Shown: in pieces, positions 36,740 through 36,890 of the stretch | Position numbering within the stretch: position 1 is the first letter of the stretch | How the letters are laid out: the number at the start of each line of letters is the position of its first letter | Source: Candidatus Tayloriibacteriota bacterium | GTDB taxonomy: Bacteria > Patescibacteriota > Minisyncoccia > Phycocordibacterales > JARIHA01 | Direction: 5' to 3' | DNA length: 54,391 nt | Assembly: GCA_029288475.1 (NCBI GenBank) | Contig: JARIHA010000168.1 | Location: 1 to 54,391 of the forward strand | Translations under genes and position numbers: made by a program | The notes under the pieces: generated by a model | What the model was told of the DNA's origin: nothing | What the model saw: only the letters and a program-made list of their open reading frames with translations | Database searches by the model: none

Positions 36740-36890
36740 ATCGCTCTCGGGTCACACCGGGAGCGCGGATTGAAACGGAGAGGATTCTAGCGCGATCCAG
36801 CAGCGTGTTTAATCGCTCTCGGGTCACACCGGGAGCGCGGATTGAAACATACTGCTTGATGTCTTCAGCGACGAATTTAGCGCATCGCTC
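36740..36890 (+). CRISPR. orphan mini-CRISPR array: 2 full repeats, 2 spacers, third repeat truncated after 7 nt
   Basis: The identical 37-nt repeat ATCGCTCTCGGGTCACACCGGGAGCGCGGATTGAAAC occurs at 36740-36776 and 36812-36848. Unique 35-nt spacers lie at 36777-36811 and 36849-36883. ATCGCTC (36884-36890) recurs at exactly the expected spacing. The repeat has an internal 9-bp stem and ends in GGATTGAAAC. Confidence 0.75.

What the first reader, a model, noticed from the sequence alone, without database searches (positions are those of the whole stretch)
36740..36890. Orphan two-spacer CRISPR mini-array with a type I-C-like repeat, truncated inside its third repeat
Seen:
- Two identical 37-nt repeats are separated by a unique 35-nt spacer.
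- A second unique 35-nt spacer is followed, at exactly the right phase, by only the first 7 nt of the repeat (ATCGCTC).
- After that the sequence switches abruptly to a serine-recombinase fragment.
- The repeat folds into a 9-bp stem (CGCUCUCGG/CCGGGAGCG, one G-U pair) and ends in GGAUUGAAAC.

Established knowledge: stem-loop repeats ending in AUUGAAAC are typical of Cas5d- or Cas6-processed type I (notably I-C) and some type III arrays. Cas-less mini-arrays with one or two spacers have been described on viruses and other mobile elements, where they exploit a host system.

Inference:
- Orientation is plus strand, since the handle is at the 3' end of the repeat and the AT-rich leader-like stretch 36649-36739 lies upstream.
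- No cas-like ORF exists anywhere in this 54 kb.
- The array sits in a decayed island between an IS remnant and a recombinase remnant.
- It is therefore either a relic of a lost CRISPR locus or a mobile-element-borne mini-array.
Basis: partly seen in the sequence, partly recalled or inferred. Interest (0 to 1): 0.7.

Follow-up and report, generated by a model that had tools for sequence, protein, structure and literature searches.

The report
Orphan CRISPR array remnant in CPR bacterium
This is a real but broken leftover of a type I-C CRISPR immune locus (leader, two repeats, two spacers, and 7 bases of a third repeat) with no cas genes on the contig. It lies among fragments of mobile-element genes next to a tRNA gene in a Paceibacterota (CPR) bacterium, a group that rarely has CRISPR, and it is most likely a non-functional fossil of transferred DNA.

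Summary
Two identical 37-nt repeats (36740-36776, 36812-36848) flank a unique 35-nt spacer. A second 35-nt spacer follows, then only ATCGCTC (36884-36890).

It is a CRISPR array of the type I-C family.
- The repeat has a 9-bp hairpin and an 11-nt tail ending in AUUGAAAC.
- Same-geometry 37-nt repeats lie directly downstream of complete cas3-cas5c-cas8c-cas7-cas4-cas1c operons in Verrucomicrobiota genomes.
- The 99 nt upstream (36641-36739) are homologous to the leaders of those arrays. GTTCGC sits at -55 and a TTGA-containing motif at -99.

No cas gene or cas remnant exists in the 54-kb contig. Upstream is the first 57 codons of an IS5-type transposase. Downstream is an internal C-terminal piece of a large serine recombinase, which ends at the 3' end of tRNA-Gln. 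Synteny with related genomes breaks at that tRNA.

The contig is a Paceibacterota (CPR) chromosome, and the 2.6-kb island is its most compositionally deviant part. Neither spacer matches anything searched.

Best reading: a decayed, non-functional relic of horizontally acquired type I-C DNA. A working mini-array served by cas genes elsewhere cannot be excluded from one contig. Interest is modest.

The parts
36460..36630 (+). 5' fragment of an IS5/IS1182-type transposase gene (first ~57 codons only). Homology ends where the DUF772 domain would start. The junction with the leader lies within 36631-36640.
   Evidence: phmmer found 89 relatives, up to 84% identical over residues 1-57. Full-length relatives carry DUF772 starting at residue 59-61, plus DDE_Tnp_1 or DDE_Tnp_1_6. 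Pfam and NCBIfam do not recognise the fragment itself.
36641..36739 (+). CRISPR leader (proximal ~100 nt). It carries GTTCATTGACA at -99 and GTTCGCGGAA at -55 relative to repeat 1. GC is 0.40.
   Evidence: It is homologous to leaders of Verrucomicrobiota type I-C arrays: z = 6.3 (L093), 7.6 (L034) and 7.1 (L013), with 0 of 500 shuffles as high and 0 of 300 control segments as high. The motif distances are identical.
36740..36776 (+). Repeat 1 (37 nt)
36777..36811 (+). Spacer 1 (35 nt), GGAGAGGATTCTAGCGCGATCCAGCAGCGTGTTTA. No target was found.
36812..36848 (+). Repeat 2 (37 nt), identical to repeat 1
36849..36883 (+). Spacer 2 (35 nt), ATACTGCTTGATGTCTTCAGCGACGAATTTAGCGC. No target was found.
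36884..36890 (+). First 7 nt of repeat 3 (ATCGCTC), in phase. The hairpin and handle are missing. The following ATGAAA (36891-36896) is of ambiguous origin.
36897..37411 (+). Internal C-terminal fragment of a large serine recombinase gene (coiled-coil and tail region). It has no catalytic, recombinase or zinc-ribbon domains and is truncated at both ends. NCBI calls the ORF 36891-37472 a 193-aa protein.
   Evidence: 29 homologues at 50-61% identity. Alignment A2 shows the homologues extend upstream into a CxxC...YYHC zinc ribbon and about 35 aa downstream. hhalign of A2 against the Resolvase+Recombinase protein L127:5749-7140 gives probability 99.3%, E = 7e-21, on residues 300-438. A frameshifted full-length copy is in L127 1704-3510.
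37412..37483 (-). tRNA-Gln(UUG). Its 3' end abuts the recombinase fragment. Synteny with related genomes breaks here.
   Evidence: ARAGORN and Rfam, 60.4 bits. dnaX followed by tRNA-Gln is conserved in L130 and L131, and the gene content beyond the tRNA differs in all three genomes.
34797..36459 (.). Unannotatable part of the same compositionally deviant island. No ORF here matches Pfam, NCBIfam or the plasmid collection.
   Evidence: The tetranucleotide correlation of 34801-37411 with the rest of the contig is 0.43, against a mean of 0.79 (sd 0.12) for all 2.6-kb windows.

Best explanation
The feature is the leader-proximal ~250 bp of a type I-C CRISPR array: about 100 nt of leader, repeat-spacer-repeat-spacer, and 7 nt of a third repeat. 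It survives as a non-functional fossil in a small mosaic of foreign DNA fragments next to tRNA-Gln on a Paceibacterota (CPR) chromosome.

How such a unit works in an intact system (established knowledge, PMC5965381):
- The leader directs transcription and Cas1-Cas2 spacer insertion at repeat 1.
- Cas5c (Cas5d) cuts each repeat at the 3' base of the hairpin.
- This gives crRNAs with an 11-nt 5' tag (here CGGAUUGAAAC), the spacer, and a 3' hairpin.
- Cas5c, Cas8c and Cas7 then guide Cas3 to matching DNA.

State here:
- The cas operon that normally precedes the leader is absent. A transposase gene stump sits in its place.
- The array is cut inside repeat 3 and joined to an internal piece of a serine recombinase gene, which is itself cut off at the tRNA.
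- At most spacer 1 could still yield a canonical crRNA, and only if type I-C Cas proteins were supplied from elsewhere. Spacer 2 has no 3' hairpin.

Inferred history:
- Foreign DNA carrying a type I-C locus (or a piece of one) entered at the tRNA-Gln variable region.
- An IS5-type element inserted.
- At least three deletions then removed the cas genes, the distal array, and most of both mobile-element genes.

Shown: the identity of the fragments, the sharp junctions, the absence of cas, the foreign composition, and the CPR host. Inferred: that cas genes once lay in cis, and the order of events.
For: Array and type:
- The repeats and spacers are as described.
- The hairpin plus 11-nt tail matches the Cas5d product described in PMC5965381.
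- A relaxed repeat pattern hit more than 119 genomic loci, many of them long arrays.
- 37-nt repeats of the same geometry (L004, L073, L083, L093) lie directly downstream of Cas3, Cas5c, Cas8c/Csd1, Cas7/Csd2, Cas4 and Cas1c, all above curated cut-offs.
- The closest repeat found is in L126. Its stem and tails are 29 of 31 identical and only the loop differs.
- The four inner stem pairs, which the search pattern did not constrain, covary. 98.2% of cells are paired against 33-56% when the partner is slid, and the covariation score is 0.42 against 0.09 in shuffles.

Leader:
- Leader homology is significant, with motifs at identical distances.

Orphan and decayed:
- No cas hit among 57 ORFs in PADLOC.
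- No Cas remnant by tblastn.
- The transposase stump ends at codon ~57.
- The recombinase piece lacks both ends.

Context:
- The host is CPR.
- Both flanks have CPR-like composition, and the island is the most deviant stretch.
- Synteny breaks at tRNA-Gln.
- CRISPR-Cas is rare in Parcubacteria. The arrays listed for them in Burstein 2016 have unrelated repeats, and the operons shown are not typed as I-C.
Against: - Only this contig is available, so type I-C cas genes elsewhere in the genome cannot be excluded.
- The two repeats are still 100% identical and the leader motifs are intact. The relic is therefore either young or under some constraint.
- Nothing proves that cas genes were ever present in cis. 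The fragment may have arrived already truncated.
- Read-level support for the three junctions could not be checked.
Confidence: 0.7

Rival explanations
1. It is a functional cas-less mini-array. It is carried on, or left by, a mobile element and is served in trans by a type I-C system elsewhere in the genome, or in a co-resident element. At least spacer 1 would be used against a competitor element or phage.
For: - The leader is intact over ~100 nt, with conserved motifs.
- The two repeats are identical.
- Spacer 1 is flanked by two complete repeats, so it could be processed normally (PMC5965381).
- The flanks are mobile-element genes.
- Cas-less I-C-like repeats do occur on viral contigs.
Against: - Both flanking mobile-element genes are stumps cut exactly at the array borders. 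This looks like deletion, not a packaged cargo.
- The last repeat lacks its hairpin.
- No copy of this repeat is in viral, genome or metagenome collections, so no conserved element carries it.
- No protospacer was found.
- The Parcubacteria operons visible in Burstein 2016 are not typed as I-C.
Confidence: 0.17
2. It is an assembly or binning artefact. The mosaic of ~200-500-bp pieces (transposase, array, recombinase) would be a chimeric join of reads from different organisms in a metagenome assembly.
For: - The contig comes from an uncultured organism.
- Three abrupt junctions lie within 800 bp.
- The island is the most compositionally deviant stretch of the contig.
- The leader and repeat resemble those of another phylum.
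Against: - Both large flanks are CPR-like and resemble each other. Tetranucleotide r is 0.80-0.84 between flanks and 0.84-0.90 with the relative L130.
- dnaX followed by tRNA-Gln is syntenic with relatives right up to the junction.
- The junctions share no repeat that could mislead an assembler.
- tRNA-adjacent variable regions are expected biology.
Confidence: 0.1
3. It is a non-CRISPR repeat, for example a REP- or MITE-like palindromic element, or a simple local duplication.
For: There are only two complete copies, which is below the three-repeat minimum that I recall most CRISPR callers using. The Rfam CRISPR-DR9 match is below threshold (20.3 bits against 45).
Against: - It is not dispersed. 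There are 2 copies in 54 kb, both here.
- The spacers are unrelated, so it is not a tandem duplication.
- The repeat belongs to a family found in long arrays beside type I-C operons.
- The upstream sequence is a homologous leader.
- The third copy starts in phase.
Confidence: 0.02

Closest known systems
Type I-C (Dvulg) CRISPR arrays with 37-nt repeats in Verrucomicrobiota genomes (loci L093, L034, L004, L013, L073, L083) and the metagenome array L126
   Same: - 37-nt repeat: (A/G)TCGCTC, inner stem, loop, GAGCG(C/T)GGATTGAAAC.
- A 9-10-bp hairpin and an 11-nt tail.
- A ~72-nt period.
- Repeat orientation relative to the leader.
- Leader motifs GTTCGC at -55 and TT(C/T)(A/T)TTGA at -99/-100.
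   Different: - There is no cas operon upstream of the leader. A transposase stump is there instead.
- Only two spacers.
- The third repeat is cut after 7 nt.
- One G-U pair in the stem.
- The host is a Paceibacterota (CPR) bacterium, not Verrucomicrobiota.
- This exact repeat was found nowhere else.
Orphan or degenerate CRISPR arrays left after loss of cas genes. From my own knowledge, an example is the leader-plus-repeat remnants in Escherichia coli strains that lack the type I-F cas genes.
   Same: A short leader-proximal array piece persists without cas genes and has no evident function.
   Different: Here the remnant lies in a compositionally foreign island bounded by truncated mobile-element genes, in a lineage where type I-C has not been seen. 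It is therefore more likely a fossil of transferred DNA than of an ancestral locus.
Virus- and plasmid-borne mini-CRISPR arrays and solitary repeat units (mini-arrays on mobile elements are discussed in PMC9071438 and PMC7038947; the rest is from my own knowledge)
   Same: Cas-less, with one or two spacers, next to mobile-element genes. Solitary I-C-like repeats exist on viral contigs (L121, L122, L124).
   Different: - It is not on an identifiable intact element.
- It carries a full chromosomal-type leader.
- The terminal repeat and both flanking genes are truncated.
- It is not conserved in any collection.
- No spacer target was found.
Rfam CRISPR-DR9 (RF01322)
   Same: Same architecture: 37 nt, an 8-9-bp stem, and a tail ending in GGAUUGAAAC. 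It was the best Rfam hit.
   Different: It scores 20.3 bits against a gathering score of 45, so it is not a member by Rfam's criterion.

Membership tests
CRISPR array (generic) | Near-identical direct repeats of 23-50 nt, regularly spaced by unique spacers of similar length | tested here: met
   Two 37-nt repeats are 100% identical. The spacers are 35 and 35 nt and unrelated. The third repeat starts in phase, and 0 matches were expected by chance. Caveat: only two complete repeats.
CRISPR array (generic) | A leader sequence adjoining the first repeat | tested here: met
   36641-36739 is homologous to leaders of type I-C arrays (z up to 7.6), with motifs at the same distances.
CRISPR array (generic) | cas genes in the neighbourhood | tested here: not met
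   No cas model hit among 57 ORFs. tblastn with type I-C Cas proteins found no remnant. The rest of the genome was not available.
CRISPR array (generic) | Spacers match mobile genetic elements | tested here: inconclusive
   No match in IMG/VR seed scans. Only chance-level partial hits in GenBank phages. None in plasmids, the window or the fetched loci. Viruses of CPR bacteria are probably poorly represented in these collections (my own knowledge, not measured here).
Type I-C CRISPR repeat family | A stable hairpin followed by an 11-nt single-stranded 3' tail (which becomes the 11-nt 5' tag after Cas5c/Cas5d cleavage) ending in AUUGAAAC | tested here: met
   9-bp stem, -17.2 kcal/mol, z = -4.0, 11-nt tail CGGAUUGAAAC. 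The 11-nt tag is described in PMC5965381.
Type I-C CRISPR repeat family | Sequence relatives of the repeat lie next to cas3-cas5c-cas8c-cas7-cas4-cas1-cas2 operons | tested here: met
   In L004, L073, L083 and L093, Cas1c, Cas4, Cas7/Csd2, Cas8c/Csd1, Cas5c and Cas3 score above curated cut-offs beside 37-nt repeats 28-31 of 37 identical to this one. The stem covaries.
Type I-C CRISPR repeat family | Cognate type I-C Cas proteins encoded in the same genome | not testable with these tools
   They are absent from the 54-kb contig.
Rfam CRISPR-DR9 (RF01322) | Bit score at or above the gathering score (45) | tested here: not met
   20.3 and 19.4 bits.
Mobile-element-borne mini-CRISPR array | Located on an identifiable virus, plasmid or integrative element | tested here: not met
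   The contig is a chromosome carrying TopA, SerRS, ClpB, DnaX and DprA. The neighbours are truncated stumps of a transposase and a recombinase gene. No att duplication was found.
Mobile-element-borne mini-CRISPR array | The same mini-array is conserved in related elements | tested here: not met
   No match to the repeat in viral, genome or metagenome collections. The one related metagenome array is an ordinary longer array.
Solitary repeat unit / RNA anti-CRISPR | A single repeat-like unit without canonical spacers or leader, on a phage or mobile element | tested here: not met
   Two full repeats, two canonical 35-nt spacers and a homologous leader.

The most novel reading that the evidence does not exclude
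The 2.6-kb mosaic beside tRNA-Gln records DNA taken up by an uncultured Paceibacterota episymbiont from a Verrucomicrobiota-like neighbour, possibly its physical host. The leader and repeat, whose nearest relatives are Verrucomicrobiota type I-C arrays, would then be a host-association clue. They would also be direct evidence that class 1 CRISPR loci do enter CPR genomes and are then purged. A bolder variant is that the mini-array is still used with type I-C Cas proteins supplied in trans.
Probability: 0.1. Interest if true: 0.55.

Novelty: new member of a known kind. Interest (0 to 1): 0.3.

Why it matters
Orphan and degenerate CRISPR arrays are well known, so the feature itself is ordinary. 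Three points make it worth a note.

- Host lineage. CRISPR-Cas was found in only about 1-2% of genomes from these CPR lineages (PMC4742961, PMC6509639), and the systems listed there are not type I-C. A type I-C leader-and-array fossil in a compositionally foreign island fits the idea that such loci do reach CPR genomes by transfer and are quickly lost.
- Detection. With two full repeats the locus would probably fall below the three-repeat minimum that I recall most CRISPR callers using. Leader homology gave independent proof of identity, which is a useful criterion for such relics.
- Leader motifs. The comparison exposed position-conserved motifs (GTTCGC at -55, TTTGA-containing motif at about -65 or -100) in one type I-C subfamily. 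These may be integration or promoter signals.

Tried and rejected
Repeat searches
- The exact repeat, and a version with a free loop, gave 0 hits in viral, genome and metagenome collections.
None of the 119 loci returned was from a CPR genome.

Source and taxonomy look-ups
- Exact-protein look-ups for DnaX, the MFS protein and P0001 found no record.
- P0031, a cluster mate of a window protein, led to an unrelated contig, L001.
- Cluster look-ups of the transposase and recombinase relatives returned no organism names.

Flanking fragments
- Pfam and NCBIfam on the transposase and recombinase fragments themselves gave nothing. Their identity came only through homologues.
- A tblastn of the transposase fragment against plasmids gave no match.
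- A profile of the recombinase family against PDB sequences gave only noise.
- Pfam Zn_ribbon_recom hits on the homologues were sub-threshold, with E = 0.13 to 0.98.

Possible cas remnants and other island content
- I checked whether the stretch just upstream of the leader is a decayed cas2. tblastn with Cas2 and all other ORFs of six type I-C loci found nothing there.
- Ten ORFs of the unannotated 34.8-36.5 kb stretch had no Pfam hit at E <= 0.1, and the 167-aa ORF had no plasmid match.

Integration signatures
- I checked whether the recombinase family's conserved C-terminus is really a tRNA overlap. No tRNA is present in three homologue loci.
- I looked for an att-type duplicate of the tRNA-Gln 3' end in the window and found none.

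Promoter and composition
- The sigma-70 scan found no plus-strand promoter in the leader.
- GC content alone did not distinguish the fragments.

Apparent fourth repeat
- A partial resemblance at 36943-36962 (ATCGTTC...CACCGGG) was considered as a fourth repeat. It was rejected because it is out of phase and lies within recombinase-homologous coding sequence.

Full report
**1. What is there**

- The 37-mer ATCGCTCTCGGGTCACACCGGGAGCGCGGATTGAAAC occurs at 36740-36776 and 36812-36848, identical and 72 nt apart.
- With up to three mismatches it occurs nowhere else in the 54,391-bp window, and none was expected in 100 shuffles.
- The two 35-nt spacers (36777-36811 and 36849-36883) are unrelated and unique. 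TRF sees no 72-nt tandem duplication.
- Exactly in phase, 36884-36890 reads ATCGCTC, the first seven bases of the repeat. Identity then stops.
- As RNA the repeat folds into a 9-bp stem with one G-U pair, a 6-nt loop and an 11-nt single-stranded tail, CGGAUUGAAAC. The energy is -17.2 kcal/mol, z = -4.0.

**2. Is it CRISPR, and of which kind?**

- Rfam's best match is CRISPR-DR9. It has the same architecture but scores only 20.3 bits against a gathering score of 45.
- The exact repeat, and a loop-degenerate version, are absent from the viral, genome and metagenome collections.
- A relaxed pattern that fixed only the outer stem and the handle hit more than 119 genomic loci, many of them long arrays.
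- Several of these have 37-nt repeats of exactly the same geometry. An example is ATCGCTCCGGCCCTCGGACCGGAGCGCGGATTGAAAC, present 15 times in L035.
- In L004, L073, L083 and L093 these arrays lie directly downstream of cas3-cas5c-cas8c-cas7-cas4-cas1c. Cas1c, Cas7/Csd2, Cas8c/Csd1 and Cas5c all score above NCBIfam's curated type I-C cut-offs.
- The repeats read in the same direction as the operon, with ATTGAAAC at the 3' end.
- The closest repeat found is in metagenome contig L126. It has an identical stem and tails (29 of 31 positions) and a different loop.
- Across 19 repeats of this family, the four inner stem pairs that the search pattern did not constrain covary. 98.2% of cells are paired, against 33-56% when the partner is slid. 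The covariation score is 0.42, against 0.09 in shuffles.
- The 11-nt tail matches the 11-nt 5' tag left by Cas5d in type I-C (PMC5965381).

The 'type I-C-like' label is therefore supported by comparison, not only by resemblance.

**3. The leader**

The strongest independent evidence is upstream of repeat 1.
- The 99 nt at 36641-36739 align with the leaders of the Verrucomicrobiota type I-C arrays.
- GTTCGC lies 55 nt upstream of repeat 1 in the window and in six of eight leaders.
- A TT(C/T)(A/T)TTGA motif lies at -99 in the window and at -99 or -100 in L093, L034 and L013.
- Alignment scores have z = 6.3, 7.6 and 7.1, with 0 of 500 shuffles as high. None of 300 random window segments scores as high.
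- The leader was not part of any search pattern, so this is an unbiased confirmation of identity and of plus-strand orientation.
- The simple sigma-70 scan found no plus-strand promoter in the leader.

**4. What surrounds it**

- There is no cas gene. PADLOC found none among 57 non-overlapping ORFs. tblastn with every ORF of six type I-C loci found no Cas remnant anywhere in the window, including the position where cas2 would be expected.
- Immediately upstream, residues 1-57 of ORF 36460-36648 are up to 84% identical to the N-termini of proteins whose full-length members carry DUF772 (starting at residue 59-61) plus a DDE transposase domain. This is an IS5-type transposase gene cut after about codon 57, within 10 nt of the distal end of the leader.
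- Downstream, the ORF that NCBI calls at 36891-37472 has 29 homologues at 50-61% identity.
- Those homologues extend upstream into a CxxC...YYHC zinc ribbon and about 35 residues further downstream.
- Their profile matches residues 300-438 of a bona fide Resolvase+Recombinase protein with 99.3% probability and E = 7e-21.
- In L127 a frameshifted full-length large serine recombinase ends in one of these homologues.
- The window therefore holds only an internal C-terminal piece of the recombinase gene.
- Homology begins at 36897 at the latest. The hexamer 36891-36896 is ambiguous.
- Homology ends at about 37416-37420, at the 3' end of tRNA-Gln(UUG) at 37412-37483.

**5. Host and locus**

- SerRS and DnaX place the contig in Paceibacterota/Parcubacteria (CPR). 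The best named hits are 62-75% identical.
- The window is an entire NCBI contig.
- The order TopA, DprA, SerRS, ClpB, Dus, DnaX, tRNA-Gln is conserved in relatives L130 and L131. Beyond the tRNA, all three genomes differ.
- Both flanks are compositionally alike and resemble L130, with tetranucleotide r of 0.80-0.90. The stretch 34801-37411 is the most deviant part of the contig, at r = 0.43 against a mean of 0.79 (sd 0.12).
- The rest of the island, 34797-36459, has no recognisable gene.
- CRISPR-Cas was found in 1.4% of 354 genomes from these CPR lineages. The Parcubacteria arrays and operons shown there have unrelated repeats and are not typed as I-C (PMC4742961; PMC6509639).
- None of the 119 loci returned for the repeat family was from a CPR genome, though that scan was truncated.

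**6. Spacers**

Neither spacer matches the window, the fetched loci, IMG/VR, GenBank phages or PLSDB plasmids.
- Window.
- Fetched loci.
- IMG/VR: four seed-style scans with every sixth base left free.
- GenBank phages: only partial hits with E >= 0.1.
- PLSDB plasmids.

**7. Interpretation**

The best-supported reading (about 0.7) is a decayed, non-functional relic of horizontally acquired type I-C CRISPR DNA.
- It lies in a tRNA-adjacent variable region.
- At least three deletions produced the junctions transposase stump | leader, repeat-3 stump | recombinase piece, and recombinase piece | tRNA.
- Whether cas genes were ever present in cis is inferred, not shown.

A functional mini-array served in trans (about 0.17) cannot be excluded from a single contig.
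- For it: the leader is intact, the repeats are identical, and spacer 1 is fully flanked.
- Against it: the neighbours are cut exactly at the array borders, the last hairpin is missing, no conserved element carries the unit, and no type I-C system was seen in CPR genomes in the searches and paper checked here.

An assembly chimera (about 0.1) is unlikely. The flanks are concordant and the junctions share no repeat. Only reads can settle it. A non-CRISPR repeat is effectively excluded.

**8. Verdict**

- It is a new member of a known kind: an orphan type I-C array remnant.
- Interest is modest at 0.3. That score rests on the CPR host and on what the relic implies about gain and loss of CRISPR loci in that group.

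Noticed in passing
L093, L034, L004, L013, L090, L035, L073, L083 (leaders; alignment A3) and window 36641-36739: Leaders of this 37-nt-repeat type I-C subfamily share position-fixed motifs. GTTCGC(G/A) lies 55 nt upstream of repeat 1 in 6 of 8 loci. GTTCTTTGA(C/A)A lies at about -65 or about -100. They may be integration or promoter signals. I did not check whether they have been described.
   Followed up: partly
L131 11205-11226 and 11265-11286: In a related Paceibacterota contig, a 22-nt sequence overlapping the 3' end of tRNA-Gln is duplicated exactly 60 nt downstream. This looks like an att-type scar and suggests that elements integrate at this tRNA in the lineage. 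No such duplicate exists in the window.
   Followed up: partly
L121 (minus strand, around rc position 7565), L122 295-331, L124 (minus strand): IMG/VR viral contigs carry solitary type I-C-like repeats. An example is ATCGCTCCGAAGAAATTCGGAGCGCGGATTGAAAC in L124. L121 has two divergent repeats, each preceded by a duplicated ~24-nt segment, which resembles a viral mini-array or repeat decoy.
   Followed up: no
window 36884-36897: After the 7-nt repeat stump comes ATGAAAC. This is the repeat's 3' end (ATTGAAAC) minus one T, so repeat 3 may be internally collapsed rather than simply truncated. The recombinase piece would then start exactly at a repeat-spacer boundary. The same bases can also be read as recombinase codons (I/V-K) with the next Tyr codon deleted. 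This is unresolved.
   Followed up: partly
window 37409-37420: Recombinase homology (…LLGE) and the 3' end of tRNA-Gln overlap by roughly 6-9 nt (CTGCTGGGGGAA). This is either junction microhomology or coincidence.
   Followed up: no
window 38595-43480: Relative to L130 and L131, about 4.9 kb is inserted between Dus and DnaX. It holds an MFS transporter, two HlyD-family genes and an unannotated 145-aa ORF, and forms a second variable segment on the other side of dnaX.
   Followed up: no
L127 1704-3510; L129 1933-3271: The recombinase family that matches the window fragment often appears as a separate 230-290-aa C-terminal ORF. In L127 the full gene is broken by frameshifts. In L129 the C-terminal ORF follows an HTH gene with no catalytic domain upstream. 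Either decay is frequent or a stand-alone derivative exists.
   Followed up: partly
window 34797-36459: About 1.7 kb with GC of 0.38-0.52 has no ORF recognisable by Pfam, NCBIfam or plasmid tblastn. It includes a 167-aa ORF (35555-36058, minus strand) whose N-terminus looks hydrophobic by eye and so may be a signal peptide. This stretch is part of the compositionally deviant island.
   Followed up: partly
L064, L091, L094 (Vicinamibacterales contig CBDCCO010000007.1, 0.96-1.04 Mb): One 7.3-Mb contig has several array regions in which individual repeats differ from each other. Examples are ATCGCTCCCGGGTTTGAACGGGAGCGCGGATTGAAAC and ATCGCTCCCGAGCGCCGACGGGAGCGCGGATTGAAAC. These are among the repeats closest to the window's.
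   Followed up: no
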